Sequence record: MZ501108
Length of the DNA stretch: 64,000 nucleotides
From: Escherichia phage TrudiGerster
Direction: 5' to 3' (one strand)
Shown: positions 4,698-39,773 of the stretch, in pieces
Numbering within the stretch: the stretch's first letter is position 1
How the letters are laid out: the number at the start of each line of letters is the position of its first letter
Program-made: the position numbers and the translations under genes
Notes under the pieces: generated by a model
The model's input: only the letters and a program-made list of their open reading frames with translations
What the model was told of the DNA's origin: nothing
Database searches by the model: none

Positions 4698-6074
4698 ATG
4701 ACTATTGATATTAATAAGCTGAAGGAAGAACTTGGTCTGGGTGATCTGGCTAAATCTCTGGAAGGTCTGACTGCTGCTCAGAAAGCTGCGGAAGCTAAGC
4801 GTCTGCGTGAAGAGCAGGAAGAAAAAGAACTGGCTCGTATGAATGACCTGGTTGCTAAAGCTGTTGGCGAAGATCGTCAGAAAATGCAGGAAGCTCTGGA
4901 TCTGGTTAAATCTCTGGACGAAAAGTCTAAGAAGAGCGCAGAACTGTTTGCACAGACGGTAGAGAAGCAGCAGGAAACCATCGTTGGTCTTCAGGACGAA
5001 ATCAAATCTCTCCTGGCGGCACGTGACGGTCGTTCTTTCGTAGCTGACAACATCTCCAAAGCACTTCGTGGTGATCAGAACGCTTTCGAGGACGAAGTTG
5101 AAAAACTGGTTCTTCTGTCCTATGTAATGGAGAAAGGCGTATTTGATACTGACCATGGTCAGGCTCACCTGAAAGCTGTAAACGCTTCATCTTCTGTTGA
5201 AGTATCTAGCGAATCTTACGAAACTATCTTCTCCCAGCGTATCATCCGTGATCTGCAGAAAGAACTGGTAGTTGGTGCTCTGTTCGAAGAACTGCCAATG
5301 TCCAGCAAACTTCTGACTATGCTGGTTGAGCCAGATGCTGGTCGCGCTACTTGGGTAGATGCTTCTACTTACGGTACTGATGCTACTACTGGTAACGAAG
5401 TTAAAGGTGCTCTGACTGAAATTCAGTTCAAGACCTACAAACTGGCTGCTAAGTCCTTCATCACTGATGAAACTGAAGAAGATGCTATCTTCTCCCTGCT
5501 GCCTCTGTTACGTAAGCGTCTGATCGAAGCACACGCTGTTTCTATCGAAGAAGCTTTCATGACTGGTGACGGTTCTGGTAAGCCTAAAGGTCTGTTGACT
5601 CTGGCTTCCGAAGACAGTGCTAAAGTTGTTACCGAAGCTAAAGCTGACGGTTCCGTACTGGTAACTGCTAAGACTATCTCTAAGCTGCGTCGTAAACTGG
5701 GTCGCCACGGTCTGAAGCTTTCCAAGCTGGTACTGATCGTGTCTATGGATGCTTATTACGATCTGCTGGAAGATGAAGAATGGCAGGACGTTGCTCAGGT
5801 TGGTAACGATGCTGTTAAACTGCAGGGTCAGGTTGGTCGTATTTACGGTCTGCCGGTTGTAGTTTCTGAGTACTTCCCAGCTAAGGCTGCTTCTGCAGAA
5901 TTCGCAGTAATCGTCTACAAGGACAACTTCGTAATGCCGCGTCAGCGTGCTGTTACTGTTGAACGTGAGCGCCAAGCTGGCAAACAGCGTGACGCATACT
6001 ACGTTACTCAGCGTGTTAACCTGCAACGTTACTTCGAGAACGGCGTTGTATCCGGTGCTTACGCTGCATCTTAA
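4698..6074 (+). CDS. major capsid protein with N-terminal scaffolding (delta) domain
   Basis: 458 aa; charged coiled-coil N-terminus (KAAEAKRLREEQEEKELARMNDL); strongly biased high-expression codons; followed by a strong terminator. Confidence 0.85.
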   Translation: MTIDINKLKEELGLGDLAKSLEGLTAAQKAAEAKRLREEQEEKELARMNDLVAKAVGEDRQKMQEALDLVKSLDEKSKKSAELFAQTVEKQQETIVGLQDEIKSLLAARDGRSFVADNISKALRGDQNAFEDEVEKLVLLSYVMEKGVFDTDHGQAHLKAVNASSSVEVSSESYETIFSQRIIRDLQKELVVGALFEELPMSSKLLTMLVEPDAGRATWVDASTYGTDATTGNEVKGALTEIQFKTYKLAAKSFITDETEEDAIFSLLPLLRKRLIEAHAVSIEEAFMTGDGSGKPKGLLTLASEDSAKVVTEAKADGSVLVTAKTISKLRRKLGRHGLKLSKLVLIVSMDAYYDLLEDEEWQDVAQVGNDAVKLQGQVGRIYGLPVVVSEYFPAKAASAEFAVIVYKDNFVMPRQRAVTVERERQAGKQRDAYYVTQRVNLQRYFENGVVSGAYAAS

Positions 6075-6093
6075 TACAGGCTTTTCAGCCGAT

Positions 6094-6121
6094 AAGGAGA
6101 GCTTCGGCTCTCCTTTTTTAT
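6094..6121 (+). terminator. rho-independent terminator after major capsid gene
   Basis: hairpin aggagagc-ttcg-gctctcct followed by T-run. Confidence 0.75.
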
Positions 6122-6136
6122 TGGGAAAAATAAATG
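6114..6136 (+). repeat. conserved 23-nt element ttttttattgggaaaaataaATG (copy 1)
   Basis: identical 23/23 to 11131-11153; ends in the start codon of the downstream gene. Confidence 0.8.
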
Positions 6137-6646
6137 CAAATCATCACTGTTGAAGATTACAGACTATATGCTAACGCAAAACGTCCTGAAATTGAAACAC
6201 AAGTAGATATGATGATTAAAGCTGCCAATACGCTGATTACTAGCCTTCTAGGTATGGACGACGCGGATGCGGTAGATCAATTAATCACTACTAAACCTAG
6301 CCGTAGGAAATACTTTTTGAGTTCTCCTTCTGCTACATCAGTCACAAAGATGACTATTAATGAGAATGAAATAGCCCCGGAACAGTATAAACTGTATCCA
6401 GATGGTGTTATTCTCCTTAAATTTAATCCACCAGAAGGGTATATGGATGTAGAATATACGCAAGGTGGTTTCAACCCAATGCCTGAAGATCTCAAGCTGG
6501 CTGCATGTCTATTAGTAGATCACTGGCATAAACAAGATTATCGTCAAGCCAAGACTATTGGTGGTGAAACAGTAACGTTTAACAATACTAAGTCAGGTAT
6601 TCCTGAGCATATTCGTACAATCATCGAAGTCTATAGGAGAGTATAA
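6134..6646 (+). CDS. putative head completion / head-tail adaptor protein
   Basis: 170 aa ORF following the capsid gene; assignment by position. Confidence 0.45.
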   Translation: MQIITVEDYRLYANAKRPEIETQVDMMIKAANTLITSLLGMDDADAVDQLITTKPSRRKYFLSSPSATSVTKMTINENEIAPEQYKLYPDGVILLKFNPPEGYMDVEYTQGGFNPMPEDLKLAACLLVDHWHKQDYRQAKTIGGETVTFNNTKSGIPEHIRTIIEVYRRV

Positions 6647-7413
6647 TGTCTCTTTCTGATCTAGCTAGACAGATTATCAAAGAGCAGCTAGATACAGCAG
6701 GACGATCTGAAAATAATAAGAACACTGTTGTGTATACTGTTGAAACTGGGCTTAAAGATCCGAAAAGGGATGGTACTGTTGCGCAAGTATCATTCAAGTT
6801 CTCTAAACCAGTATCGCAGGACTTATTAAACGTGAGGACAGCCTCTATCTTGAAGGCTGTTTCCGCCAACTTAGATCTTTCTGGTGACTTAGGCGCTCTG
6901 GAAAATCTCATACAAGCCACGGCAGGCAAAAGATCAGCCGTTGGTAAGAAACGCTCAACTGGTAGGGTTCAAGTAAACTTTGGTGATCCTAGAGATACTG
7001 AAGATGGTTATTCAGGTGCAGTTACAGGTGCGGCTGGACGATTCGTTTCAAATAGTAACATGAAGGCTATCTTGGAGATAGTAGCTAAAGAATATCTTAT
7101 TAAGGATATGAAGAAAGCAGGAGCGCCACTGAAATTCAGAACTGGACGTTTTGCTAACTCCCTTAAAATCAAAGATGTTATGTTACGTGATGCTGAAACA
7201 AGTCGTGGTGCTCCTGAACTTAATGTGACCTACAATTATATGGTTAGACCTTACTCAGTATTCAACCCCGCAGTATCCACCTATCGCAGACTGTCTTTAC
7301 GTCCTTACCCTGGGGCGAGAAACCCACAAAAACTTATTGGGGAAGCGATAGCTAAAGCTGCAAGAGACCTGATTCACTCTAGATATAAAATCAAGGTTAA
7401 TCAAGGAACCTAA
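6646..7413 (+). CDS. putative neck/structural protein
   Basis: 255 aa ORF in head-tail joining block; start overlaps upstream stop. Confidence 0.4.
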   Translation: MSLSDLARQIIKEQLDTAGRSENNKNTVVYTVETGLKDPKRDGTVAQVSFKFSKPVSQDLLNVRTASILKAVSANLDLSGDLGALENLIQATAGKRSAVGKKRSTGRVQVNFGDPRDTEDGYSGAVTGAAGRFVSNSNMKAILEIVAKEYLIKDMKKAGAPLKFRTGRFANSLKIKDVMLRDAETSRGAPELNVTYNYMVRPYSVFNPAVSTYRRLSLRPYPGARNPQKLIGEAIAKAARDLIHSRYKIKVNQGT

Positions 7414-7416
7414 TAA

Positions 7417-7902
7417 ATGGATCACAGAACAAGTATTGCACAAGCGCTGGTTGATCGAATCTCCAAGCAAATGGACGGATCTCAGCCAGATGAGTATTTT
7501 AACAACCTTTATGGAAACGTTTCTCGTCAAACTTATAGATTTGAGGAAATCCGAGAATTCCCTTACGTGGCAGTTCATATAGGAACTGAAACTGGGCAGT
7601 ATCTTCCTTCAGGTCAACAGTGGATGTTTTTAGAACTTCCAATTCTGGTCTATGACAAAGAAGAAACAGATATTCAAGAGCAACTTGAAAAACTCGTAGC
7701 TGACATAAAAACCGTCATTGACACAGGTGGAAATTTAGAATATACTGTTAGTAAACCTAATGGATCGACCTTCCCATGTGAGGCAACTGATATGAGCATC
7801 ACGTCAGTTAGTACAGATGAGGGTCTACTGGCCCCATATGGTTTAGCGGAAATAAATGTAACAGTGCGCTATATGCCACCTAAGCGTGCATTACGCAGAT
7901 AA
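7417..7902 (+). CDS. putative tail completion protein
   Basis: 161 aa ORF just upstream of tail tube gene; assignment by position. Confidence 0.45.
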   Translation: MDHRTSIAQALVDRISKQMDGSQPDEYFNNLYGNVSRQTYRFEEIREFPYVAVHIGTETGQYLPSGQQWMFLELPILVYDKEETDIQEQLEKLVADIKTVIDTGGNLEYTVSKPNGSTFPCEATDMSITSVSTDEGLLAPYGLAEINVTVRYMPPKRALRR

Positions 7903-7928
7903 GTTACAGATTAGGAGAATATAAATAA

Positions 7929-9338
7929 ATGTCTTTACAACTATTACGTAATACTCGAATCTTCGTGTCTACGGTTAAGACTGGTCACACCAAAGAAAAC
8001 ACGCAAGAGATTCTAGTTCAAGATGATATTTCTTGGGGTCAGGACAGTAACTCAACCGATATTACTGTTAACGAAGCTGGTCCGCGTCCAACTCGTGGTT
8101 CAAAACGTTTCAACGACTCCTTGAACGCTGCTGAGTGGAGCTTCTCTACTTACATCCTGCCTTACGCGGATAAAACTACTGGTAAGCAGATCGTTCCAGA
8201 CTATATGTTATGGCATGCGCTCTCTAGTGGTAAGCCTATCGATCTCGATGGTGATACTGGAGCTCATACTAACGAAACCAACTTCATGGTTAACTTTAAG
8301 GATAACGCATATCACGAACTGGCTATGCTGCACATTTATATCCTTACTGATAAAGCCTGGAGTTACATTGATTCCTGTCAGATCAACCAAGCCGAAGTAA
8401 ACGTAGATATCGAAGATATCGGTCGTGTAACTTGGTCGGGTAACGGTAACCAGCTGATTCCTTTGGATTCACAGCCATTTGACCCTGATACTGTAGGTAT
8501 CGATGATGAAACTTACATGACTATCCAGAGTTCTTATATTAAGAACAAATTAACTATCCTGAAGATCAAGGATATGGATACTGGTAAGGCATATGATATT
8601 CCGATCACTGGTGGTAGCTTCACAATCAACAACAACATCACCTACCTGACTCCGAACATCATGTCCCGTGTAAACATTCCAATCGGTTCCTTTACTGGTG
8701 CATTCGAACTAACTGGTTCTCTGACTGCTTATCTGAACGATAAAGCTCTAGGTTCTATGGATCTGTACAAAGATCTGATTAAGACCCTGAAAGTAGTTAA
8801 CCGTTTCGAAATTGCCCTGATTCTTGGTGGTGAATACGATGATGAGCGCCCTGCAGCTGTTCTGGTCGCTAAGCAAGCCCACGTTAACATCCCAACTATC
8901 GAGACTGACGATGTACTTGGTACTTCTGTTGAGTTCAAGGCTATCCCTACCGATCTGGATACAGGTGATGAAGGTTACCTTGGTTTCTCTAACAAGTATA
9001 CCAAAACTACTATCGCTAACCTGATTGCTACAGGTGACGGTGGTCAAGTTGCTCCGGTTCCAGTTACTGGCATTACTGTTAAGTCTGCTGGTGACGCTAC
9101 TTCAGTTGAAAACAGCGCAACTCTTCAGATGACTGTAGATGTTCTGCCTGCTGAAGCTACGAACAAGGCTGTAACTTGGTCTATCTCTTCTGGTACTGCT
9201 GCTACTATTGACGCAACTTCTGGTCTTCTGACTGCTGATGCTTCTAAAACTGGTGCAATTACGGTCAAAGCGGTAGCTAAAGACGGTTCTGGTGTAGAAG
9301 GTACTAAGAGCATTACAGTTACTGCTTCTGGTGGCTAA
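7929..9338 (+). CDS. major tail tube protein with C-terminal Big_2-like Ig domain (pb6-like)
   Basis: 469 aa; C-terminal Ig-like segment (VTGITVKSAGDATSVENSATLQMTVDVLPAEATNKAVTWSISSGTAATIDATSGLLTA); biased codons. Confidence 0.78.
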   Translation: MSLQLLRNTRIFVSTVKTGHTKENTQEILVQDDISWGQDSNSTDITVNEAGPRPTRGSKRFNDSLNAAEWSFSTYILPYADKTTGKQIVPDYMLWHALSSGKPIDLDGDTGAHTNETNFMVNFKDNAYHELAMLHIYILTDKAWSYIDSCQINQAEVNVDIEDIGRVTWSGNGNQLIPLDSQPFDPDTVGIDDETYMTIQSSYIKNKLTILKIKDMDTGKAYDIPITGGSFTINNNITYLTPNIMSRVNIPIGSFTGAFELTGSLTAYLNDKALGSMDLYKDLIKTLKVVNRFEIALILGGEYDDERPAAVLVAKQAHVNIPTIETDDVLGTSVEFKAIPTDLDTGDEGYLGFSNKYTKTTIANLIATGDGGQVAPVPVTGITVKSAGDATSVENSATLQMTVDVLPAEATNKAVTWSISSGTAATIDATSGLLTADASKTGAITVKAVAKDGSGVEGTKSITVTASGG

Positions 9339-9342
9339 TTAA

Positions 9343-10239
9343 ATGTACTACTCTCTAATGCGAGAGTCGAAAGTTATAGTTGAGTACGATGGCAGGGCGT
9401 ATCACTTTGACGCTCTGTCAAACTATGATATCAATACCTCCTACGAGGAATTTAAAACTCTTCGTAGGACTATTCATCGCAGAACCAACTATGCTGACTC
9501 TGTTATTAACGCACAAGCTCCATCATCAATATCGCTGGCTATAAATTTTAGTAATACCCTTACTGAGGCTAACTTCTTTGAATGGATGGGCTTTGATAGA
9601 GAGGGTACTACCTTCCTACTACCACTTTATAGCACGAATATTGAACCAACAATGTTTAATATCTACATAGTTAATAAAGATAATAACTGTGTATATTTTG
9701 AAAACTGTTTTGTATCTAACGTTGACTTCTCACTTGATAAGAATGTCCCTGTGCTGAATGTTGGTATTGAGTCTGGTAAGTTCTCTGAGGTATCCACGTA
9801 CACTCCTGCTGGTATTGTTCAAGGCGAGGTTATGTCTTACAGCCCTCCTAGAGTAGCTACAAACAGTAATATTTTACCTGCTCTTTTATCCGCTTCTATG
9901 TCCTTCCAGCAGCAATGCTCTTGGAGAGAAGATAAAAGCGTATTTGACATAAACAAAATATATAATAATAAAAGAGCTTATGTTAATGAGATGAATGCTT
10001 CGGCAACAATTGCGTTCTACTACACCAAGCGATTTGCTGGTGATATGTTCTACAATATTGAACCTGAGACTGATATCCCTTTAACTATACGAAATGAACA
10101 TATTTCGGTTGATTTCCCTTCAGCACGTATAACAAAACGCCTACAATTCTCGGATCTGTACAGGATTGAGTGGGATGTAATTCCTACTGCTGATTCTGAT
10201 CCGGTAAGAATCGACTTCTTTGGAGAAATAAAGAAATGA
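9343..10239 (+). CDS. tail structural protein (p140-like)
   Basis: 298 aa ORF between tail tube and chaperone genes. Confidence 0.45.
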   Translation: MYYSLMRESKVIVEYDGRAYHFDALSNYDINTSYEEFKTLRRTIHRRTNYADSVINAQAPSSISLAINFSNTLTEANFFEWMGFDREGTTFLLPLYSTNIEPTMFNIYIVNKDNNCVYFENCFVSNVDFSLDKNVPVLNVGIESGKFSEVSTYTPAGIVQGEVMSYSPPRVATNSNILPALLSASMSFQQQCSWREDKSVFDINKIYNNKRAYVNEMNASATIAFYYTKRFAGDMFYNIEPETDIPLTIRNEHISVDFPSARITKRLQFSDLYRIEWDVIPTADSDPVRIDFFGEIKK

Positions 10240-10640
10240 TTAACTTAAAAGATATTACCCTAGATACTCGCTCTGTTACGCTTTCCTACCCTGGTATGCC
10301 TAACTTTAAGCTTGAACTGAACTACATGTCTCGTGCTACCTCTAAGCGTGTTATTGCTTCTGCAAAACGTGATGAGTGGGTTAACGGTACACTGTTACAA
10401 GTTCAGGATGATGACAAGTTCATCGAAGCTTTCGTTGACTCTGCTATCAAAGGTTGGACTGGTCTGACTATTGGTGATGTTGAGAAGCTGATGCTGATTG
10501 AAACTGAAGCTGATCCATCTACCGAAGTTCCTTTTAGCCGCGATAATGCTGTGATGCTAATGCAGAACTCTGCTGCGTTTGATTCTTGGATCAACCAGAC
10601 AGTGTTCCACTTAGACACTTTTCGTAGCCCAAAAGCGTAA
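10236..10640 (+). CDS. tail assembly chaperone (upstream ORF)
   Basis: 134 aa acidic ORF immediately upstream of tape measure region. Confidence 0.5.
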   Translation: MINLKDITLDTRSVTLSYPGMPNFKLELNYMSRATSKRVIASAKRDEWVNGTLLQVQDDDKFIEAFVDSAIKGWTGLTIGDVEKLMLIETEADPSTEVPFSRDNAVMLMQNSAAFDSWINQTVFHLDTFRSPKA

Positions 10641-10701
10641 ACAACTTTTAGATGCCGTTGCCAAATTCGCAGACAAATGCGTTAAATCTTCGGCATCTAA
10701 A

Positions 10702-11070
10702 ATGACTAAAGAACAATACTTAATAATGTGCGAGTCAATGGGTATCGAACCAGATCCTGATGTGATGCCTGTTGAACTCGAAGATTTTCCACCTATCGTA
10801 TCTACTAGTATGCAAATTTATAACAGTCTCATTGATTGTTTCATACCGGGTGACTTTCCTATCTTTATAGGCAAAGACAAGGGTGCATTAGGTGTTTTAT
10901 TTGATATCTATGGGATTACTGATCCGATAGAGAAAGAGTTCGTTCTACATATCATCAATATATTTGATTCGAAAGCAGTAGACGCAGCTCGTAAGAGAGC
11001 CGAGAAACATGGGAAACAGAATGGTCGCACTCCGAACATTAAACCTCATGGAAGATCTCGAGCTCAGTAA
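10702..11070 (+). CDS. tail assembly chaperone (downstream ORF; frame open upstream to 10615)
   Basis: 122 aa; weak RBS at its ATG; its frame is +1 relative to the upstream ORF and open from 10615. Confidence 0.45.
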   Translation: MTKEQYLIMCESMGIEPDPDVMPVELEDFPPIVSTSMQIYNSLIDCFIPGDFPIFIGKDKGALGVLFDIYGITDPIEKEFVLHIINIFDSKAVDAARKRAEKHGKQNGRTPNIKPHGRSRAQ

Positions 11071-11105
11071 AAGTTTCCTCCAATGGGCGTTCCACGATGA
11101 GGCTT

Positions 11106-11138
11106 GGCTCTGGGTGATTTGCCCAGAGCCTTTTTTAT
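11106..11138 (+). terminator. rho-independent terminator
   Basis: hairpin ggctctggg-tgatttg-cccagagcc followed by tttttt. Confidence 0.7.
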
Positions 11139-11153
11139 TGGGAAAAATAAATG
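11131..11153 (+). repeat. conserved 23-nt element ttttttattgggaaaaataaATG (copy 2)
   Basis: identical to 6114-6136; ends in start codon of tape measure gene. Confidence 0.8.
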
Positions 11154-14100
11154 ACTGATAAGCTAATACGAGAACTACTGATAGACGTAAAGCAGAAAGG
11201 GGCAACCCGTACTGCTAAATCTATTGAAAATGTTTCCAATGCGTTAGAGGATGCTGCTGCCGCTTCTGAACTGACTAATGAACAGTTAGGAAAGATGCCC
11301 AAAACTCTTTATTCCATTGAGAGGGCGGCGGATAGAGCAGCAAAAAGTCTAACGAAGATGCAAGCAAACCGTGGTATGGCTAGTATAACTACTTCAATAA
11401 CAAAAATTGGAGATAAGTTAGATGACTTAGCACTAGCAATGCTAGATGTTGCAGATAAAATGGAAAGTGGTTTTGACCACGTTGGTAAATCTGTAAAGGC
11501 TATGGGCAATGACGTAGCTTCTGCAACTGAAAAAGTTCAAGATAGGTTATACGATACAAATAGAGCCTTAGCAGGTACCTCTAGAGGCTTTAATGATACC
11601 ACTACGGCAGCAGGACGCGCTAGCCGAGCAATCGGTAATACTTCTGGGTCAGCACGTGGCGCAACTCGTGACTTCGCAGCTATGGCTAAAGTAGGAGGTG
11701 GTTTACCTCTAATGTATGCTGCAATCGCATCTAACGTGTTCGTTCTGCAATCTGCTTTCGAACAACTGAAGATGGGTGACCAGTTAAACCGTCTAGAGAA
11801 GTTTGGTACTATAGTTGGTACTCAGACGGGTACTCCAGTACAGACGTTGGCTAGATCTCTACAAGAAGCTGCTGGTTATGCAATTTCTTTTGAAGAAGCA
11901 ATGAGACAGGCATCTTCTGCTTCTGCATATGGTTTTGATGCAGAACAACTTAATAAGTTCGGTCTAGTAGCTCGTCGTGCTGCTGCTGTTCTTGGTGTAG
12001 ATATGACTGATGCGCTTAACCGTGTAATCAAGGGTGTATCCAAACAAGAAATCGAACTTCTGGATGAGCTTGGTGTTACTATTCGTCTTAATGATGCCTT
12101 CGCTGATTACGTTAAACAGCTTAATGCTGCTAACACTGGTATTACATATAATATTAATAGCCTTTCTTCCTTCCAGAAGCAACAAGCATACGCTAACGCA
12201 GTAATCGCTGAATCTACTAAACGTTTCGGCTACCTGGACGACGTGCTTCGTGCAACTCCATGGGAACAGTTTGCTGCTAACGCTGATGCTGCCTTACGTA
12301 AGATTCAACAAGCTGCTGCTAAGTACCTTGGTCCAGTTATTGATTCTATTAACGCAGTATTCTATACTTCTCAAGCTTCTATCTCTGCAACTGCGGCTAG
12401 GGCACAGGAGCAGACAAACAAATCGATTGATCCTAGTAACGTGGGTGCTGTAGCTCTTGGGCTCGAGGCATCAGAAGCTGGGTACAATAAGGCTCTCGAT
12501 ATGTATAGAGAATCTCTAGATAAGCGTAATAAGTTAAAGGCTGATCTAGATAAACGTATGCAGCAAGCTGACTTCTTTACCACTGGTGCAATCCGCTCTG
12601 TGGCTCAAGGAGTTCCTTTAAGTGCTGCTGCATTGGGTGCTTCCGAGGAGAATAAGAAGTTTGTTGCTGATACCGCTGCAATGGCATTACAAGTAGAACG
12701 TCTTGATAAGGAAGTTGCTGACTCTACAGATAACTTAGGAGCCTGGAAATCTGCGTATCAAGCTGCTGGAGCGGCTGCTGCTAAGGCAAATCCTGAGTTC
12801 CAAAAACAAATTAATCTGCAGAAAGATGCTAATGATCCGAGTGCAGTTTACGACTTCAATTCTGAAACTCTAAAAGGATTAACGGAGCAGCAGAAAGCGT
12901 ACAACCAGACTAAGAAAACTGCTAGTGACTTAGCAAATGATATTCAGAACATTGCTCAAAATACTAACACTGCTGCTAAGACAAGTGCATCATTAGCTGA
13001 TACAATTAAGACTATTGAATCGCTATCAGCTGGTACTGGTAAGAATGCTGATGAGTATGTTAAGAGCCTGAACTTAGGTTATAATACTCTAAGTGAAATG
13101 AAAACTGCTTCCCAAGCACTTGCTGGGTACGTAAAACTAACTGGTGATGAAACTAAGAATCAGTTAGCTGTTCAGCAGAAGATTGCCGAAGTATACAACC
13201 AGACTAAGGACAAAGAAAAGGCTCAGGAAGCTGGTAGACGTCTGGAAGTTCAACAGCTAGAAGAACAGGAAGCCGCACTTAAGCGTGTACTGGAAACTAA
13301 CCAAGGTAATAAAGCAATTGAAAATGAGATTGCTAAAATCCAGTTAGAGAAGATCAAAATCGCTAACCAGAACATGGAAGCTCAGAAGAAGGTTAAGGAT
13401 TATACGGATAAGATCCTTGGTGTCGATCGTGAAATTGCTCTGCTTAACAACCGTACTATGACGGATACTCAATATAAGTTAGCTCAGTTGAATCTTGAAC
13501 TGACTATCGAGAAAGAGAAGTATGCGTGGTACTCTAAGCAGGTTGACAAACAGAAGGATGCTGAGCAATCAAGACGTGCTCAGGCACAGATTGAACGTGA
13601 AATCTGGAAGTTCCGTCAAGACCAGCAAATGGAAATGGCCAGTGGGCGCGAGAGAGCCTTAGGGATATCCCAAACCGAACGTAACGTTACTGGTGAATCT
13701 CAGCGTTTAACTGAACAGCAAGCTCTGTACCAAAGTCTACTGGAGATTACAAAAGGAAACGCACAAGCTCAGGAAGAGTATAAGCGTAAGATCCAAGAAA
13801 CTTCGGCAGCTCTAGCACAACTCAAGATGCAACGTGATGCTCAAATGCAGCAATCTGTTACTTCTTCTGTTGGTGGCACTTATACACCTACTACTGGACT
13901 GGAGGGTGATGATAAGGCCAATATGGATATGCAGAATAGAATGGCATCCTATGACCAGGCTATCTCTAAATTATCTGAGCTGAACTCTGAAGCAGCTGCA
14001 GTAGCACAAAGTATGGGTAATCTAACTAATGCTATGATTCAGTTCTCCCAAGGATCTCTGGATACCACATCTTTAGTAGCTGCTGGTATGCAAACTGTAT

Positions 14101-14831
14101 CTTCAATGATTCAGTATAGTGTTGGTCAACAGGTAAGTGCGATTGATCAGGCTATTGCGGCAGAACAGAAGCGTGATGGTAAATCAGAGGCATCTAAGGC
14201 TAAGATCAAGAAGTTAGAAGCTGAAAAGCTTAAGATCCAACAAGATGCAGCTAAGAAGCAAATCATCATCCAAACAGCAGTTGCAGTTATGCAGGCAGCT
14301 ACTGCAGTACCTTATCCATTCTCTATCCCATTAATGGTGGCGGCTGGATTGGCAGGTGCTATGGCATTAGCTCAGGCGTCTTCCGCATCTGGTATGTCTA
14401 GTATTGGAGACACGGGTGGAGACACTGCTAGTTATTTAACTCTTGGTGAGCGCCAGAAGAACGTTGATGTTTCTATGTCGGCTAATGCTGGTGAATTATC
14501 CTACGTGCGGGGTGATCAAGGTATCGGCAATGCCAACTCCTTTGTCCCTCGTGCAGAAGGTGGTAATATGTACCCAGGAGTTAGTTACCAGATGGGTGAA
14601 CATGGTACCGAGGTAATTACTCCTATGGTTCCCATGAAGGCTACTCCTGCTGATGAAGTTAAAGGCTCAGCTAGAGGATCATCTGGTAGACCTATTGTAC
14701 TGAACATCAATACAATGGATGCGGCGAGCTTCCGAGATTTTGCTTCGAGTAACAGTGCTGCGTTCAGGGATGCCGTGGAACAGGCTCTTAATGAGAATGG
14801 AACCACCCTGAAATCACTTGGTAATTCTTAA
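11151..14831 (+). CDS. tail tape measure protein
   Basis: 1226 aa, long alpha-helical/coiled-coil Ala/Gln/Lys-rich protein with C-terminal hydrophobic segment; position after chaperones. Confidence 0.88.
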   Translation: MTDKLIRELLIDVKQKGATRTAKSIENVSNALEDAAAASELTNEQLGKMPKTLYSIERAADRAAKSLTKMQANRGMASITTSITKIGDKLDDLALAMLDVADKMESGFDHVGKSVKAMGNDVASATEKVQDRLYDTNRALAGTSRGFNDTTTAAGRASRAIGNTSGSARGATRDFAAMAKVGGGLPLMYAAIASNVFVLQSAFEQLKMGDQLNRLEKFGTIVGTQTGTPVQTLARSLQEAAGYAISFEEAMRQASSASAYGFDAEQLNKFGLVARRAAAVLGVDMTDALNRVIKGVSKQEIELLDELGVTIRLNDAFADYVKQLNAANTGITYNINSLSSFQKQQAYANAVIAESTKRFGYLDDVLRATPWEQFAANADAALRKIQQAAAKYLGPVIDSINAVFYTSQASISATAARAQEQTNKSIDPSNVGAVALGLEASEAGYNKALDMYRESLDKRNKLKADLDKRMQQADFFTTGAIRSVAQGVPLSAAALGASEENKKFVADTAAMALQVERLDKEVADSTDNLGAWKSAYQAAGAAAAKANPEFQKQINLQKDANDPSAVYDFNSETLKGLTEQQKAYNQTKKTASDLANDIQNIAQNTNTAAKTSASLADTIKTIESLSAGTGKNADEYVKSLNLGYNTLSEMKTASQALAGYVKLTGDETKNQLAVQQKIAEVYNQTKDKEKAQEAGRRLEVQQLEEQEAALKRVLETNQGNKAIENEIAKIQLEKIKIANQNMEAQKKVKDYTDKILGVDREIALLNNRTMTDTQYKLAQLNLELTIEKEKYAWYSKQVDKQKDAEQSRRAQAQIEREIWKFRQDQQMEMASGRERALGISQTERNVTGESQRLTEQQALYQSLLEITKGNAQAQEEYKRKIQETSAALAQLKMQRDAQMQQSVTSSVGGTYTPTTGLEGDDKANMDMQNRMASYDQAISKLSELNSEAAAVAQSMGNLTNAMIQFSQGSLDTTSLVAAGMQTVSSMIQYSVGQQVSAIDQAIAAEQKRDGKSEASKAKIKKLEAEKLKIQQDAAKKQIIIQTAVAVMQAATAVPYPFSIPLMVAAGLAGAMALAQASSASGMSSIGDTGGDTASYLTLGERQKNVDVSMSANAGELSYVRGDQGIGNANSFVPRAEGGNMYPGVSYQMGEHGTEVITPMVPMKATPADEVKGSARGSSGRPIVLNINTMDAASFRDFASSNSAAFRDAVEQALNENGTTLKSLGNS

Positions 14832-14837
14832 TATTGG

Positions 14838-14866
14838 AGGAGGACTTTATGTCCTCCTTTTCTTTA
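14838..14866 (+). terminator. rho-independent terminator after tape measure gene
   Basis: hairpin aggaggac-tttat-gtcctcct followed by ttttcttt; then a diverged copy of the ggaaaaataaa element. Confidence 0.7.
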
Positions 14867-14884
14867 TGGAAAAATAAAAATTTC

Positions 14885-14913
14885 TTGATAAAATTTTCCA
14901 ATCCTATTATAAT
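14885..14913 (+). promoter_or_regulatory. sigma70-like promoter upstream of distal tail gene
   Basis: TTGATA - 17 nt - TATAAT, followed by AGAGGAG RBS and ATG at 14940. Confidence 0.55.
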
Positions 14914-14939
14914 ATTGTTATTAAGAGGAGAAATTAACT

Positions 14940-15554
14940 ATGAGACTACCAGACCCATACACGAACCCAGAGCTATCAGGGTTAGGTTTTGAAAGCGTTA
15001 ACTTAGTAGACAATGACCCTATGATTCGTGATGAATTACCTAATGGTAAAGTTAGGGAGGTTAAGGTGTCTGCTCAATATTGGGGTATTAATATCTCTTA
15101 TCCAGAATTATTCCCAGATGAGTTTGCAAAATTAGACTCATTTATACTTGACTATAAAAGAAAGGGTGATTATATTGATGTTCTACTACCTCAATATGAA
15201 GCTTTTAGAGTACGTGGTGATACTAGTGCTGTGAATATTCCAGCAGGTCAAAAAGGTTCCACTGTTATGATGGATACTAAAGGAACACTACGTGGGCTAC
15301 CAAAGCCAGGAGATTTATTTAAACTCTCCAATCATCCTAAAGTATATAAAATCACTTCTATCACTACAGCAGGCAACTCATGGCAACTGAGTATTTATCC
15401 TGATCTGTTCATTACTACTACAGGTAGTGAAAAGCCAGTATTCAATGGTATTTTATTCAGAACTAAGCTCATGAATGGGGATAGTTTTGGCTCTACGTTA
15501 AATAATAACGGTACTTATTCTGGTATTTCACTTTCCTTGAGGGAAAGTCTATGA
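14940..15554 (+). CDS. distal tail protein (pb9-like)
   Basis: 204 aa ORF following tape measure gene. Confidence 0.65.
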   Translation: MRLPDPYTNPELSGLGFESVNLVDNDPMIRDELPNGKVREVKVSAQYWGINISYPELFPDEFAKLDSFILDYKRKGDYIDVLLPQYEAFRVRGDTSAVNIPAGQKGSTVMMDTKGTLRGLPKPGDLFKLSNHPKVYKITSITTAGNSWQLSIYPDLFITTTGSEKPVFNGILFRTKLMNGDSFGSTLNNNGTYSGISLSLRESL

Positions 15555-18400
15555 AGAAAATTCTTGACACAGCTAGAGAGTATTTAAGATCACACAATAA
15601 AATAAAAACAGCGTGTCTTATTACTCTTGAGCTTCCTAGCTCTACTGGATCTAGTGCAGCTTACATATATCTAACTGATTATTTCAGAGATGTTATGTAT
15701 AATGGTATTCTATATACATCTGGTAAAGTTAAGTCTATTGCAACTCACAAACAAAACAGAGATCTTTCCATTGGTAGCCTTTCTTTTACTATTACGGGTA
15801 CAGCAGAGGATGAAGTTTTAAAACTCGTTCAAAATGGTGTATCCTTCCTAGATAGATCTATATCTATTCATCAAGCTGTTATTGATGAAGATGGTAACAT
15901 TCTTCCAGTAGATCCAGATACTAATGGTCCTTTATTATACTTCCGTGGTAAGATTACTGGTGGAGGTATTAAAGATAATATTGGTACTTCAGGCATCAGT
16001 ACCTCAGTAATTACATGGAATTGTTCAAACCAGTTCTATGACTTCGATAGAGTTAACGGTCGTTTTACTGATGATGCTGACCATCGCGGATTAGAAATTG
16101 TTGCTGGTCAATTAGTTCCTTCTAATGGTGCTAAGCGTCCAGAGTATCAAGAGGATTATGGTTTCTTCCACGCTAATAAGAGTATCTCTATTCTTGCTAA
16201 GTATCAGGTGCAGGAAGAGAGATATAAACTGCAATCCAAGAAGAAATTATTTGGTCTATCAAGAAGTTATAGTCTTAAGAAGTATTATGAGACTGTAACT
16301 AAAGAAGTTGATCTTGATTTCAACCTTGCAGCTAAATTCCTTCCAGTAGTATATGGAGTTCAGAAAGTTCCTGGTATTCCAGTGTTTGCAGATACTGAAC
16401 TACATAATCCAAATATTGTGTATGTAGTATACGCCTTTGCAGAAGGGGAGATTGACGGGTTCCTAGACTTCTACTTTGGCGACGTTCCTATGATTTGTGT
16501 TGATCCAAATGATAGTAAAAACCGTACATGTTTTGGTACTAAAAAGACTGCTGGTGATACAATCCAACGTATTGCTTCTGGATTGCCAGACTCTTCTCCT
16601 TCTATTCACGGACAGGAATATAAGTATAACGATGGTAATGGGGATATTAGGGTATGGACATTCCACGGTAAACCAGATCAAACCGCAGCAGATGTTTTAG
16701 TAAACATTGCTAAAGAAAAAGGTTTCTATCTCCAGAACATGAATGAGAATGGCCCTGAATATTGGGATTCTCGTTATAAACTTCTAGATACTGCGTATGC
16801 TATTGTTCGTTTTACTATTAACGAAAACAGAACAGAAATTCCTGAGGTTAGTGCTGAGCTTCAAGGTAAGAAGATTAAGATCTACCATTCTGATGGTAAA
16901 GTAACTGCTGATCGTACTAGTTTAAACGGTATTTGGCAGACTCTTGACTACCTGACTTCAGATCGTTATGGTGCTAATATTACTATTGACCAGTTTCCAC
17001 TAAAACAACTAATTCAAGAGGCTGCTATTTTAGATATCATTGATGAGTCATATCAAGTATCTTGGCAACCTTATTGGAGATACGTTGGATGGACAGATGC
17101 AATAGGTGAACATCGTCAGATAGTACAGATGAACACTATTTTAGATACTTCTGAATCTGTGTTTAAAAACGTACAAGGTTTATTAGAATCTTTTGGTGGT
17201 GCGATAAATAACCTGTCAGGACAGTATCGTATAACTGTTGAAAAGTACTCCAATACTCCATTAGAGATTAACTTTATGGATACTTATGGGGACTTAGAGT
17301 TGTCTGATACAACTGGTAGGAATAAGTTTAACTCTGTTCAGGCCTCTATCCTAGACCCTGCATTAAGTTGGAAAACCAACTCTATCACATTCTTTAACTC
17401 TATATTTAAAGAGCAGGATAAAGGATTAGATAAAAAGCTGCAACTATCCTTTGCAAACATTACTAACTACTACACTGCACGTAGTTTTGCTGATAGAGAA
17501 CTTAAAAAGTCTCGTTACTCTCGAACTCTATCTTTCTCTCTACCATACCATTTCATTGGTATTGAACCTAACGATCCAATAGCATTTACTTATGACCGTT
17601 ATGGGTGGAATAAGAAATACTTCCTAGTAGACGAGGTTGAGAACTCAAGAGAAGGCAAGATTAATATTACTCTACAAGAGTACGGAGAAGATGTATTTAT
17701 TAACTCCGAGCAGGTAGATAACAGTGGTAATGATATTCCTGATGTAAGTAATAACGTTCTGCCTCCAAGAGATTTTATTTATACGCCAACTCCTGGCGGT
17801 ACTGTTGGAGCTATAGGTAAGAATGGTGAGTTATCTTGGCTTCCAAGTCTTACAAATAACGTTGTTTATTATTCTATTGTTCATTCTGGCCATGCAGAAC
17901 CGTATATCGTTCAGCAGTTAGAATCTAATCCAAATCTACGAATGATTCAAGAAATCATAGGAGAACCTGCTGGTTTAGCAGTATTTGAGATTAGAGCAGT
18001 AGATATAAATGGTAGAAGAAGTTCTCCAGTAACTTTATCTGTAGAGCTTAATTCTGCTAAAAACTTAAGCGTTGTTAGTAACTTTAGGGTAACTAATACA
18101 GCTTCAGGAGATGCATCGGAATTTGTAGGGCCAGATGTTAAATTGGCCTGGGATAGGATTCCAGAAGAGGACATTATTGATGGTATCTACTATACTCTCG
18201 AAATCTACGATAATCTAGATCGTTTATTAAGAAGTGTACGTATTGAGGATCAATATGTTTATGATTATCTACTGATATACAATAAGGCAGACTATGCTTT
18301 GCTAAATGAAGATGCTCTTGGTATTAACAGGAAATTACGTTTCCGAATTAGAGCAGAAGGTGATAATGGCGAGCAATCTGTGGATTGGGCATCTATTTAA
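15551..18400 (+). CDS. baseplate hub / tail tip protein (pb3-like)
   Basis: 949 aa ORF, overlapping stop/start with flanking tail genes. Confidence 0.7.
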   Translation: MKKILDTAREYLRSHNKIKTACLITLELPSSTGSSAAYIYLTDYFRDVMYNGILYTSGKVKSIATHKQNRDLSIGSLSFTITGTAEDEVLKLVQNGVSFLDRSISIHQAVIDEDGNILPVDPDTNGPLLYFRGKITGGGIKDNIGTSGISTSVITWNCSNQFYDFDRVNGRFTDDADHRGLEIVAGQLVPSNGAKRPEYQEDYGFFHANKSISILAKYQVQEERYKLQSKKKLFGLSRSYSLKKYYETVTKEVDLDFNLAAKFLPVVYGVQKVPGIPVFADTELHNPNIVYVVYAFAEGEIDGFLDFYFGDVPMICVDPNDSKNRTCFGTKKTAGDTIQRIASGLPDSSPSIHGQEYKYNDGNGDIRVWTFHGKPDQTAADVLVNIAKEKGFYLQNMNENGPEYWDSRYKLLDTAYAIVRFTINENRTEIPEVSAELQGKKIKIYHSDGKVTADRTSLNGIWQTLDYLTSDRYGANITIDQFPLKQLIQEAAILDIIDESYQVSWQPYWRYVGWTDAIGEHRQIVQMNTILDTSESVFKNVQGLLESFGGAINNLSGQYRITVEKYSNTPLEINFMDTYGDLELSDTTGRNKFNSVQASILDPALSWKTNSITFFNSIFKEQDKGLDKKLQLSFANITNYYTARSFADRELKKSRYSRTLSFSLPYHFIGIEPNDPIAFTYDRYGWNKKYFLVDEVENSREGKINITLQEYGEDVFINSEQVDNSGNDIPDVSNNVLPPRDFIYTPTPGGTVGAIGKNGELSWLPSLTNNVVYYSIVHSGHAEPYIVQQLESNPNLRMIQEIIGEPAGLAVFEIRAVDINGRRSSPVTLSVELNSAKNLSVVSNFRVTNTASGDASEFVGPDVKLAWDRIPEEDIIDGIYYTLEIYDNLDRLLRSVRIEDQYVYDYLLIYNKADYALLNEDALGINRKLRFRIRAEGDNGEQSVDWASI

Positions 18401-20464: not shown

Positions 20465-20887
20465 ATGAGTACAGAAAATAGAGTTATTGATATTGTTGTT
20501 GATGAGAAAGTACCTTATGGTCTTATTATGCAGTTTATGGATGTTGATGATAGTGTCTATCCTCCAACTGAAGTTCCTGTAAATTTAGAGGGCTACTCAC
20601 TTCGTGGAACAATTAAATCTAGCCTTGATGAAAACGCCGAGATTCTAGCAAATTTTAAGGCTCGTGTAGTGGATGCCTCTCAGGGAGCCGCAGCGATTAG
20701 TCTTACTGTTGAAGATGTTACTAACATTGGTAACAAAGCATCTAAAGAACGTGATAAGTATAACCCAAGACAACGTTTCGCTGGTTATTACGACATTCTA
20801 ATGACTCGTGATGTTATTGGCTCAGAAGTCAGCTCATTCCGTATCATGGAAGGTAAGATCTACATCAGCGATGGAGTAACTCAATAA
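20465..20887 (+). CDS. putative collar / fibre attachment protein (p132-like)
   Basis: 140 aa ORF immediately upstream of the L-shaped fibre gene. Confidence 0.45.
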
Positions 20888-32642: not shown

Positions 32643-32749
32643 TCTATTAAATAACTTAACAATCAGGTCGGAATTTCCTCTAGCTAGTAAGTATAGCTTT
32701 TCATAGTCGAAGAATTTAATTTTTGTTTTCTCCTCGAATTTATGTATAT

Positions 32750-32779
32750 ATTATACTAGATTTCGAGAGAATTTAGCAA
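32750..32779 (-). promoter_or_regulatory. early promoter (minus strand), proximal copy
   Basis: minus strand TTGCTA - 18 nt - TATAAT followed by conserved ATATACATAAATT and GAGGAG. Confidence 0.55.
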
Positions 32780-32850
32780 GTACAATTTTTATTTTTCTGC
32801 TTCGGACTTTCTTATCAATCCGAAACTTTCTCTCTCAAATTTATGTATAT

Positions 32851-32879
32851 ATTATACAATAATTATGAACTGTTGCCAA
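32851..32879 (-). promoter_or_regulatory. early promoter (minus strand), distal tandem copy
   Basis: minus strand TTGGCA - 17 nt - TATAAT followed by the same ATATACATAAATTTGAGAG box; overlaps 3' end of helicase gene. Confidence 0.45.
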
Positions 32880-34215: not shown

Positions 34216-34709
34216 AATTTTATTCTAAGTCTAGGAATTTCAGGCTCCTCTTGATGGACTTGATAAATAACAGGGCTATTATTTACCAGAATATAGCTTA
34301 TATAAGCTGGTACACTAGAAAGCACGAATGGATACGGAACCTTCGCTACGTAACATTGATACTTTCCATTATAAATTCTTGCAGAATGCAGAACTTTCGC
34401 AGTCACAACATCATAGAACGTAGTTTTCTTCCAGTTAATAAGATTTCCATCAGAATCTATAAACTGGGTACGTTTCGATCCCACTAACTGGGACAGCATT
34501 GATATTCTACCACGAATAGGATAGAGTTTGTAAGGTAATTCCTTTCGTTCCTCGTATAGAACAAGCCTACGTTGAGAAAATGTGCCAGGCAACTTCCTGT
34601 TATCCAGCACATATTTGTTATATCTTGTAGTTATTACGGAATAATCACCTTCTTGCTCAATTCTTTCAAAAGCCCGCAGTGCGTATACGGGCAGTTTGAA
34701 ATTAAGCAC
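34212..34709 (-). CDS. hypothetical protein
   Basis: 165 aa ORF overlapping stop/start between polymerase and helicase genes. Confidence 0.45.
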   Translation of the reverse strand: MLNFKLPVYALRAFERIEQEGDYSVITTRYNKYVLDNRKLPGTFSQRRLVLYEERKELPYKLYPIRGRISMLSQLVGSKRTQFIDSDGNLINWKKTTFYDVVTAKVLHSARIYNGKYQCYVAKVPYPFVLSSVPAYISYILVNNSPVIYQVHQEEPEIPRLRIKL

Positions 34710-37269: not shown

Positions 37270-37330
37270 ATTTAGTCTCCTTTTGGTAAGTAAGTATAAC
37301 TTCAGTGTTTCTTCTCTAACTTACCAATAT

Positions 37331-39691: not shown

Positions 39692-39721
39692 TCTCCTTTG
39701 CACGCTTTCGTGCCTTCTAAA

Positions 39722-39754: not shown

Positions 39755-39773
39755 TTAGGTTTAATTTACCAGA

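What the first reader, a model, noticed from the sequence alone, without database searches (positions are those of the whole stretch)
6094..14880. Exactly repeated 23-nt terminator-to-start-codon module in the late region
ttttttattgggaaaaataaATG occurs identically at 6114-6136 and 11131-11153, each time directly after a strong hairpin terminator and ending in the start codon of the next gene. A diverged third copy (ggaaaaataaaaa) follows the tape-measure terminator at 14858-14880. Exact 23-mer identity in intergenic DNA implies selection, for example a late-promoter or translation-initiation element coupled to upstream termination.
Basis: seen in the sequence. Interest (0 to 1): 0.45.

Follow-up and report, generated by a model that had tools for sequence, protein, structure and literature searches.

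The report
Terminator tail fused to ribosome-binding site
The repeated 23-base stretch is real, but it is simply the end of an ordinary transcription terminator joined directly to the ribosome-binding site and start codon of the next gene, a layout shared by all T5-like phages and already annotated in phage T5.

Summary
An exact 25-mer, CCTTTTTTATTGGGAAAAATAAATG, occurs at 6112-6136 and 11129-11153 (0 of 100 shuffles). A 76% copy lies at 14856-14880.

The window is the late region of a T5-like phage (Epseptimavirus, about 93% identical to Salmonella phage S124). Each copy follows a strong hairpin after a structural gene: major capsid, tail-assembly chaperone, tape measure.

The repeat is a composite:
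- TTTTTTATT is the terminator U-tract.
- GGGA is a weak Shine-Dalgarno sequence.
- AAAATAA is an A-rich spacer.
- ATG is the start codon of the head-completion or tape-measure gene.

Twenty-two lineages (37-100% capsid identity) keep hairpin, T-tract, G-rich block 4-9 nt from the start (21 of 22), then ATG. Their stems and spacers differ. Providencia phage PSTCR5 has an identical site-1 string. In Tequintavirus, 3 extra bases separate the site-2 motif from the ATG.

No sigma-70 promoter fits sites 1 or 2. The third copy overlaps the AT-rich -43 region of the known T5 promoter P-G25. T5 RefSeq already annotates all three terminators.

The likely function is attenuation: low-copy genes are transcribed only by read-through. 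This is inferred, not shown. Verdict: an ordinary, already known kind of element.

One side observation is more interesting. A conserved anti-Shine-Dalgarno-like block lies upstream of terminator 2.

The parts
4698..6074 (+). Major capsid protein gene (context). Its stop codon TAA is at 6072-6074.
   Evidence: ORF list. Annotated as major head protein in S124 and T5.
6094..6115 (+). Terminator 1 hairpin: AAGGAGAGC-TTCG-GCTCTCCTT.
   Evidence: Terminator scans and fold at -19.4 kcal/mol. The orthologous site in T5 is annotated 'putative rho-independent transcription terminator'. All 22 lineages have a hairpin here, with many different stems.
6114..6122 (+). U-tract of terminator 1 (TTTTTTATT). 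This is the first part of the repeated 23-mer.
   Evidence: Read from the sequence. T6ATT(G) is the most widely conserved part across genera.
6123..6136 (+). Ribosome-binding region of the head-completion gene: weak SD GGGA (6123-6126), A-rich spacer AAAATAA, and ATG at 6134-6136.
   Evidence: SD:anti-SD duplex of -4.2 kcal/mol ending 6 nt from the AUG. In 21 of 22 lineages a G-rich block lies 4-9 nt before the ATG. The downstream protein matches Pfam HCP with E=5e-78.
10702..11070 (+). Tail-assembly-chaperone-like gene upstream of site 2 (context).
   Evidence: Annotated as tail assembly chaperone in S124 and T5.
11071..11105 (+). Conserved non-coding block AAGTTTCCTCCAATGGGCGTTCCACGATGAGGCTTGG. 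It contains the anti-SD-like TTCCTCCA at 11075-11082.
   Evidence: Nucleotide diversity is 0 in close relatives. The core is kept in lineages with only 28-40% chaperone identity. One-base indels inside it argue against coding. It is unique in the window.
11106..11130 (+). Terminator 2 hairpin: GGCTCTGGGT-GATTT-GCCCAGAGCC.
   Evidence: RNAalifold finds 9 of 11 pairs with compensatory changes in 19 lineages. Annotated as a terminator in T5.
11131..11153 (+). Second copy of the 23-mer: U-tract TTTTTTATT, weak SD GGGA (11140-11143), spacer, and the ATG of the tape-measure gene (11151-11153).
   Evidence: The start of T5 pb2 is supported by N-terminal sequencing according to the T5 record.
11151..14831 (+). 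Tape-measure / pore-forming tail tip protein gene (pb2 homologue).
14836..14860 (+). Terminator 3 hairpin (GGAGGAGGAC-TTTAT-GTCCTCCTT), followed by TTTTCTTTA.
   Evidence: Annotated as a terminator in T5.
14867..14884 (+). Third, diverged copy (TGGAAAAATAAAAATTTC). It is the AT-rich block at about -53 to -36 of the promoter that follows.
   Evidence: The T5-like promoter consensus includes an AT-rich -43 region, AAAAATT (PMC3326045). The block is not conserved as this motif in more distant relatives.
14885..14913 (+). Sigma-70 promoter TTGATA-17-TATAAT, homologue of T5 promoter P-G25. It drives the distal tail genes that start at 14940.
   Evidence: Promoter scan gives 11 of 12 matches. Annotated 'promoter P-G 25' in both T5 records.
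7718..7746 (+). Sigma-70 promoter TTGACA-17-TATACT inside the tail-terminator gene, homologue of T5 P-J5. It is the next annotated named promoter downstream of terminator 1.
   Evidence: Annotated 'promoter P-J 5' at the same relative position in T5.

Best explanation
The repeated 23-mer (25-mer) is not a dedicated element. It is the junction between an intrinsic (Rho-independent) terminator and the ribosome-binding site of the next gene. TTTTTTATT is the terminator U-tract. GGGA is a weak Shine-Dalgarno sequence, AAAATAA is an A-rich unstructured spacer, and ATG starts the head-completion gene at site 1 and the tape-measure gene at site 2. No promoter lies between the terminator and either ATG. 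These low-copy virion genes can therefore be transcribed only by RNA polymerase that reads through the terminator behind a high-copy gene (the major capsid gene, or the tail tube and chaperone unit). The roughly 20 nt between hairpin and ATG is about the minimum single-stranded landing pad for a 30S subunit. The two copies are identical because both descend from, or are held to, one old template (T6ATT + GG-rich SD + A-rich spacer) that is under strong purifying selection throughout Demerecviridae. In this Epseptimavirus lineage the last difference, a 3-nt indel before the tape-measure ATG, is absent. The third copy keeps only the terminator tail plus an A-rich run, and there that run is the AT-rich -43 / UP-like block of promoter P-G25. 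What is shown: the anatomy, the conservation, the SD position, the terminator covariation and the absence of promoter hexamers. What is inferred: partial read-through, the attenuation of expression ratios, and the use of GGGA as the SD.
For: - Exact repeat and hairpins.
- Gene context.
- Site 1 in 22 lineages (capsid C-terminal identity 37-100%): every one has a hairpin of -14.8 to -22.3 kcal/mol followed by a T run, with at least a dozen different stems. The ATG lies 13-26 nt (median 18) after the stem. In 21 of 22 lineages a G-rich block (GGG, GGAG, GAGG or GGAGG) lies 4-9 nt before the ATG.
- Site 2: same layout, with 9 of 11 stem pairs showing compensatory changes.
- Variants: the motif is replaced by clearer SDs in relatives, for example TTTGGAGTAAAT|ATG in My1, TTGAGGAAAATAT|ATG in L028 and TAGGAGGTAAGAA|ATG in a Vibrio phage.
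- Distance to the ATG: the A-run varies from 4 to 6 and a 3-nt insert is tolerated at site 2. The hairpin-to-GGG register does not change in those site-2 variants. At site 1 a few relatives do vary it (a longer T run in L025, ATTATTAGG in L012 and L014).
- SD strength: GGGA pairs with the 16S tail at -4.2 kcal/mol, ending 6 nt from the AUG. This is within the range of other late genes, many of which also end in ...ATAA|ATG.
- Selection: nucleotide diversity is 0.003 and 0.011 in the 23-mers against 0.13-0.28 at flanking third codon positions.
- Age of the sequence: Providencia phage PSTCR5 (56% capsid identity) has an identical site-1 string and a near-identical site-2 string.
- Prior annotation: T5 RefSeq annotates all three sites as putative rho-independent terminators and names P-G25 and P-J5.
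- Promoter type: T5 late genes use sigma-70 promoters (PMC7472727), which have an AT-rich -43 block (PMC3326045).
Against: - No transcript 3'- or 5'-end data for any T5-like phage could be found, so termination and read-through are predictions.
- GGGA is a weak SD (-4.2 kcal/mol). In Tequintavirus it lies 10-11 nt from the tape-measure ATG, which is long for an SD.
- The whole intergenic stretch, not only the terminator and RBS, is invariant in close relatives. That is more conservation than a plain terminator needs.
- Within-genome similarity of sites 1 and 2 is slightly higher than between-genome similarity (permutation p about 0.01-0.03). Some homogenisation or a shared trans-acting factor is therefore not excluded.
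Confidence: 0.78

Rival explanations
1. The motif is the binding site of a trans-acting RNA-binding factor. Candidates are a phage translational repressor of the T4 RegA type, host Hfq (U-rich plus ARN-type A-rich motif), or ribosomal protein S1 acting as an enhancer. Such a factor would co-regulate translation of the head-completion and tape-measure genes, and that shared recognition would explain why the two leaders are identical.
For: Two genes with different partners share an identical leader. The SD is weak, so initiation may depend on something other than SD pairing. Conservation is very high. Within-genome similarity of the two sites is slightly above between-genome similarity.
Against: More distant relatives replace the A-rich part freely and strengthen the SD instead. 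A-run length and a 3-nt insert are tolerated at site 2. No candidate factor was identified. No other gene in the 112-kb genome carries the motif.
Confidence: 0.1
2. The exact identity is a product of recent gene conversion or duplication between the two intergenic sites (concerted evolution). On this view it does not reflect independent selection on each site. The sequence itself would still be only a terminator tail plus an RBS.
For: Within-genome Levenshtein distance between the two sites averages 6.4, against 7.1 between genomes (permutation p 0.01-0.03). Eos and My1 show matching lineage-specific variants at both sites.
Against: The outgroup PSTCR5 already has an identical site 1 and a nearly identical site 2, and all Markadamsvirinae share the 21-22 nt core at both sites. 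The similarity is therefore old. The small within-genome excess can be explained by phylogenetic structure. The hairpins next to the repeat are unrelated. Many lineages show no within-genome matching: the partner site ranks 7-17 of 19.
Confidence: 0.08
3. The motif is a late promoter, or a UP element of one, at all three sites.
For: At site 3 the motif does lie in the -53 to -36 region of a strong sigma-70 promoter. T5-type promoters have AT-rich -43 blocks.
Against: No -35/-10 pair lies in or downstream of the motif at sites 1 and 2 before the ATG. The ATG follows at once, so a transcript started there would lack the start codon or be leaderless without a suitable -10. The candidate hexamers inside the coding starts are not conserved in relatives. 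The pattern of variation in relatives follows SD logic, not promoter logic.
Confidence: 0.03

Closest known systems
Annotated T5 late-region terminators and promoter P-G25 (NC_005859 / AY692264; genome paper of Wang et al. 2005, cited from memory)
   Same: The sites are orthologous. T5 has putative rho-independent terminators after the major head gene, after the tail assembly chaperone gene and after pb2, with P-G25 immediately after the third. The T5 site-1 string is identical to the window.
   Different: The T5 records annotate only the hairpins and the promoter, and do not note the shared tail/RBS string. In T5 itself site 2 is split, right after TTTTTTATT, by an inserted endonuclease-like gene (T5.141/T5p137). 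T5 therefore has only one intact copy.
Phage T7 terminator T-phi downstream of the major capsid gene 10 (established knowledge, from memory)
   Same: A terminator lies directly behind the most abundantly needed structural gene. Partial read-through supplies the downstream, lower-copy structural genes.
   Different: T-phi acts on T7 RNA polymerase, whereas these terminators would act on host sigma-70 RNA polymerase. Read-through here is inferred, not measured. Here the next gene's RBS starts immediately after the U-tract.
UP elements / AT-rich -43 blocks of T5-type sigma-70 promoters (PMC3326045; UP-element concept from memory)
   Same: The third copy (14867-14884) is an A/T-rich run at the UP-element position of the P-G25 homologue.
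   Different: This applies to site 3 only. Sites 1 and 2 have no promoter downstream.
Translational coupling by long-range anti-SD:SD pairing, as in MS2 coat-replicase or ribosomal-protein operons (from memory). This is relevant to the side observation at site 2.
   Same: A CCUCC-containing block lies a few nucleotides after the upstream stop codon. It is complementary to the downstream RBS and could be opened by a terminating ribosome.
   Different: No covariation supports the pairing. A terminator hairpin lies between the two partners. Nothing has been tested experimentally.

Membership tests
Intrinsic (Rho-independent) terminator | A G+C-rich stem-loop on the transcribed strand, downstream of a stop codon | tested here: met
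   The hairpins at 6094-6115, 11106-11130 and 14836-14860 fold at -15 to -20 kcal/mol and lie 4-35 nt after the stop codons.
Intrinsic (Rho-independent) terminator | A U-rich tract immediately 3' of the stem | tested here: met
   The tracts are TTTTTTATT at sites 1 and 2 and TTTTCTTTA at site 3.
Intrinsic (Rho-independent) terminator | The structure, rather than the sequence, is conserved in relatives (compensatory changes) | tested here: met
   At site 2, 9 of 11 pairs show changes on both sides in 19 lineages. At site 1 all 22 lineages fold into a hairpin with many different stems. An alifold run on the MAFFT alignment of site 1 failed through misalignment.
Intrinsic (Rho-independent) terminator | RNA 3' ends form at the U-tract in vivo or in vitro | not testable with these tools
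   No transcript-end data for T5-like phages were found.
Shine-Dalgarno ribosome-binding site | A purine-rich stretch complementary to the 16S rRNA 3' end, about 4-9 nt upstream of the start codon | tested here: met
   GGGA gives -4.2 kcal/mol (weak) with the duplex ending 6 nt from the AUG. An equivalent G-block lies 4-9 nt from the ATG in 21 of 22 lineages, and it is often GGAG, GAGG or GGAGG.
Shine-Dalgarno ribosome-binding site | The start codon is the true N-terminus | tested here: met
   The N-termini align from residue 1 across relatives. The T5 pb2 N-terminus was determined by protein sequencing according to the T5 record. There is no direct evidence for this phage.
Sigma-70 (T5 late) promoter | -35 and -10 hexamers 16-18 bp apart, upstream of the gene's leader | tested here: not met
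   The scan finds none in 6094-6136 or 11106-11153. The ATG follows the motif directly. Site 3 is different: a promoter (P-G25) follows the motif.
UP element / AT-rich -43 block | An A/T-rich run at about -40 to -60 of a sigma-70 promoter | tested here: inconclusive
   The position is met at site 3 only: 14867-14884 corresponds to about -53 to -36 of TTGATA-17-TATAAT. Function was not tested. The feature is not met at sites 1 and 2.
Any curated RNA family (Rfam 15) | A match at or above the gathering score | tested here: not met
   The only hit is a chance-level match to RF02456 (21 bits against a gathering score of 100, E=0.096) in 5900-15100.

The most novel reading that the evidence does not exclude
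The intergenic region before the tape-measure gene may be a conserved cis-regulatory RNA and not just a terminator plus RBS. The invariant block right after the chaperone stop codon (11071-11105, core UUCCUCCA...UUCCACGA) would pair across the terminator hairpin with the U-tract and SD of the repeated motif. Tape-measure translation, or terminator read-through, would then depend on a ribosome finishing the chaperone gene. Chaperone and tape-measure protein would be made in step. The shared 23-mer at site 1 would be the unregulated version of the same landing pad.
Probability: 0.15. Interest if true: 0.45.

Novelty: already known. Interest (0 to 1): 0.14.

Why it matters
The practical value is for annotation and engineering of T5-like phages. 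The head-completion and tape-measure genes appear to have no promoter of their own and to depend on terminator read-through plus a weak, A-rich RBS. Insertions or edits in these 59- and 80-nt intergenic stretches are therefore likely to disturb virion stoichiometry. The finding does not open a new question. Terminators behind major structural genes, and ribosome-binding sites abutting them, are textbook features, and the three terminators are already annotated in T5. The only lead that might repay experiments is the deeply conserved anti-SD-like block upstream of terminator 2.

Tried and rejected
- **Late promoter at sites 1 and 2.** Rejected: no hexamer pair, no leader space, and candidate hexamers inside the coding starts are not conserved.
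- **Bidirectional terminator or minus-strand function.** Rejected by inspection: the minus-strand side of the hairpins is not followed by a T run.
- **Concerted evolution of sites 1 and 2.** The permutation test gives only a weak signal (6.4 against 7.1 edits, p 0.01-0.03). Phylogenetic structure could explain it.
- **Coding explanation for the conserved block 11071-11105.** A +1 frame is open through it in the window, but 1-nt indels occur inside the block in close and distant relatives. Rejected.
- **Covariation between the anti-SD-like block and the downstream RBS.** Native pairs average -6.68 kcal/mol and re-paired ones -6.66 (p 0.47). The complementarity is generic; shuffled controls average -3.98.
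- **Rfam.** No family matched.
- **IMG/VR scan for ATTGGGAAAAATAA.** More than 120 hits, nearly all in unrelated contigs, as expected for an AT-rich 14-mer. Uninformative.
- **RNAalifold on the MAFFT alignment of site 1.** Returned no pairs because divergent hairpins were misaligned. Replaced by per-sequence folds.
- **Literature search for T5 late-transcript end mapping or RNA-seq.** Nothing usable was found. The BF23 late-gene paper (PMC197117) is not held. One search failed on a term that was too short.
- **The U-tract/A-run mini-hairpin (UUUAUU-GGGAAA-AAUAAA).** It appears in the MFE fold of site 1. It is a weak all-A:U stem that any U-tract followed by an A-rich spacer would form. It was not pursued as a functional element.
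Full report
**Observation.** The 23-mer TTTTTTATTGGGAAAAATAAATG occurs exactly twice on the + strand, at 6114-6136 and 11131-11153. No other match appears even with three mismatches allowed, and none appears in 100 dinucleotide-preserving shuffles. The identity is really a 25-mer, CCTTTTTTATTGGGAAAAATAAATG, at 6112-6136 and 11129-11153. A third stretch at 14856-14880 is 76% identical. All three follow strong hairpins.

**Context.** The window is the late (structural) region and part of the early region of a T5-like phage.
- Positions 5000-16000 are about 93% identical to Salmonella phage S124 (Demerecviridae, Epseptimavirus) and 88% identical to many Tequintavirus and Epseptimavirus genomes.
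- Site 1 lies between the major capsid gene (4698-6074) and the head-completion gene (6134-6646; Pfam HCP, E=5e-78).
- Site 2 lies between a tail-assembly-chaperone gene (10702-11070) and the tape-measure / pb2 gene (11151-14831).
- Site 3 lies after the tape-measure gene. It is followed by TTGATA-17-TATAAT (14885-14913) and the distal-tail gene at 14940.
- My own scan of the whole window found about a dozen convincing intrinsic terminators. Only these three carry the GGAAAAATAA core.
- The remaining 49.5 kb of the S124 genome has no further copy.

**What the repeat is made of.** The first nine bases, TTTTTTATT, are the U-tract of the terminator. GGGA lies at Shine-Dalgarno distance. It pairs with the 16S rRNA tail at -4.2 kcal/mol, and the duplex ends 6 nt from the AUG. 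That is weak but within the range of the other late genes. AAAATAA is an A-rich spacer. Seven of 18 late genes in the window also end their leader in TAA|ATG, and several use a GGAG or GGA block followed by an A/T-rich spacer.

**Comparative evidence, site 1.** I collected 89 related loci from IMG/VR and 10 stretches from annotated phage genomes. In 22 distinct lineages, with capsid C-terminal identity from 100% down to 37%, the same architecture follows the capsid stop codon:
- a hairpin of -14.8 to -22.3 kcal/mol, with at least a dozen different stem sequences;
- a T run;
- a G-rich block (GGG, GGAG, GAGG, GGAGG or AGGA) 4-9 nt before the ATG in 21 of 22 lineages;
- the ATG, 13-26 nt (median 18) after the stem.

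The window's GGGAAAAATAA is one state of this template. Other states are:
- My1: TTTGGAGTAAAT|ATG
- metagenomic lineage L028: TTGAGGAAAATAT|ATG
- a Vibrio phage: TAGGAGGTAAGAA|ATG
- Eos: GGGTGAAAA|ATG

Providencia phage PSTCR5 has only 56% capsid identity but the identical string.

**Comparative evidence, site 2.** Site 2 behaves the same way. Its terminator stem has compensatory changes in 9 of 11 pairs across 19 lineages. In Tequintavirus relatives three extra bases (AAC, AAT or ATT) lie between the site-2 motif and the ATG, and the A-run varies from 4 to 6. In these site-2 variants the hairpin-to-GGG register stays the same while the distance to the start codon changes. At site 1 a few relatives vary the register as well: L025 has a longer T run, and L012 and L014 read ATTATTAGG. 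This pattern fits a terminator tail abutting an ordinary RBS, not a single indivisible element.

**Selection.** Among close relatives (26 sequences for site 1, 16 for site 2), nucleotide diversity in the two 23-mers is 0.003 and 0.011. It is 0.13-0.28 at third codon positions and 0.03-0.06 at first and second positions of the flanking genes. However, the whole intergenic stretch from stop codon to ATG is equally invariant, so the 23-mer is not specially conserved within it.

**Why the two copies are identical.**
- The core TTTTTTATTGGGAAAAATAA(A) is present at both sites in nearly all Markadamsvirinae examined (T5 itself is an exception; see Side observations). It is nearly the same at both sites in the outgroup PSTCR5. 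The similarity is therefore old.
- Full identity through the ATG is confined to the Epseptimavirus-type genomes (the window, S124 and two others). It comes down to one 3-nt indel.
- A permutation test over 19 lineages shows that the two sites of one genome are only slightly more alike than sites from different genomes (6.4 against 7.1 edits, p about 0.01-0.03). Phylogenetic structure can explain this.
- I conclude that the identity reflects two similarly constrained junctions retaining one template. Occasional gene conversion or a shared binding factor is not excluded.

**Promoter hypothesis.** No -35/-10 pair exists in or after the motif at sites 1 and 2, and the ATG follows immediately. T5 late genes are known to use ordinary sigma-70 promoters (PMC7472727). 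The T5 records place the named promoters P-J5 inside the tail-terminator gene (window homologue 7718-7746) and P-G25 right after terminator 3 (window homologue 14885-14913). At site 3 the diverged copy occupies about -53 to -36 of the P-G25 homologue. That is the AT-rich -43 block described for T5-type promoters (consensus AAAAATT; PMC3326045). In more distant relatives this position is AT-rich but does not carry the motif. The third copy shares the terminator tail and an A-run with the other two, but it serves a promoter and not a start codon.

**Likely mechanism (inferred).** No promoter separates terminator 1 from the head-completion gene or terminator 2 from the tape-measure gene. Both genes should therefore be transcribed only by read-through. 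This would set a low ratio of these low-copy proteins relative to the capsid protein and the tail tube/chaperone unit. It is the same logic as T7's T-phi terminator behind gene 10 (from memory). The roughly 20 unstructured nucleotides between stem and ATG are about what a 30S subunit needs. No transcript-end data were found to confirm this.

**Comparison with what is known.** The T5 RefSeq record already annotates all three orthologous sites as putative rho-independent terminators, with P-G25 next to the third. Rfam has no family for these stretches. The element is an ordinary, already known kind of feature. The shared tail/RBS string is a detail that the annotations do not mention.

**Side observations.**
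1. A 35-nt non-coding block between the chaperone stop and terminator 2 (11071-11105, core TTCCTCCA...TTCCACGA) is invariant in close relatives. It is recognisable in lineages with only 28-40% chaperone identity.
   - It is anti-SD-like. In many lineages the MFE fold pairs it with the downstream RBS across the terminator.
   - Its complementarity to the RBS is well above shuffled controls (-6.7 against -4.0 kcal/mol). It shows no lineage-specific covariation.
   - It could couple tape-measure translation to chaperone translation. This is the most novel reading that remains open.
2. In T5 itself an inserted gene splits the site-2 motif right after TTTTTTATT. In three relatives a related gene is inserted just after the capsid stop codon. 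Both inserted genes carry Pfam CapR and treble-clef zinc-finger domains.
3. The second chaperone ORF's frame is open back to 10615, overlapping the end of the first ORF in the +1 frame near CCCAAAAG. This suggests a programmed frameshift.

Noticed in passing
window 11071-11105: A non-coding block, AAGTTTCCTCCAATGGGCGTTCCACGATGAGGCTTGG, lies between the chaperone stop codon and terminator 2. It is invariant in close relatives, and its core (TCCTC(C)A...GGGC(R)TTCCACGAG) is kept in Vibrio, Proteus, Providencia and metagenomic relatives with only 28-40% chaperone identity. It is anti-Shine-Dalgarno-like and complementary to the downstream RBS (mean duplex -6.7 kcal/mol against -4.0 for shuffles), but shows no lineage-specific covariation. 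One-base indels argue against coding. There is no Rfam match and it is unique in the window.
   Followed up: partly
L042 (T5, AY692264) 17396-18208; L211 (NC_005859) 4778-5530; L018 11467-12039; also L012 and L032 just after the capsid stop codon: Related mobile-looking genes (Pfam CapR homology domain plus treble-clef zinc finger; T5.141 is annotated 'endonuclease') are inserted at these junctions in some relatives. In T5 the insertion comes right after TTTTTTATT of terminator 2 and splits the motif. In three other phages it comes directly after the capsid stop codon, upstream of terminator 1.
   Followed up: partly
window 10236-10640 and 10702-11070 (overlap zone 10615-10640): There are two tail-assembly-chaperone ORFs. 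The reading frame of the second is open upstream to 10615 and overlaps the last 8 codons of the first in the +1 frame, next to CCCAAAAG. This looks like a programmed frameshift of the G/GT type, but in the +1 (or -2) direction.
   Followed up: partly
window 14914-14945: The leader downstream of the P-G25 homologue, ATTAAGAGGAGAAATTAACTATGAGA, is almost identical to the 'RBSII' ribosome-binding site of pDS/pQE expression vectors as I remember it. In T5 it reads ATTAAAGAGGAGAAATTAACTATGAGA. This is a recollection and was not checked against a vector sequence.
   Followed up: no
window 32733-51818, minus strand (repeat families D1 and D2): A family of seven copies of a roughly 50-nt repeat is centred on ...TATATTATA.... 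On the minus strand these are T5-type early promoters (TTGCT... / TATAATA), several of them placed directly after intrinsic terminators. This terminator-promoter pairing is the same as at site 3.
   Followed up: no
window 22300-22470 and 21049-21480: Tandem 57-nt repeats (three copies, 93% and 61% identical to the first) and dispersed 54-nt repeats lie inside the long tail-fibre gene at 20887-24285.
   Followed up: no
window 6079-6090: A small hairpin, GGC-TTTTCA-GCC, lies between the capsid stop codon and terminator 1. Enterobacterial relatives keep the GGC...GCC stem with different loops (Eos, Kp P5010, My1, L045, PSTCR5), and it is absent in Proteus phage 2.
   Followed up: no
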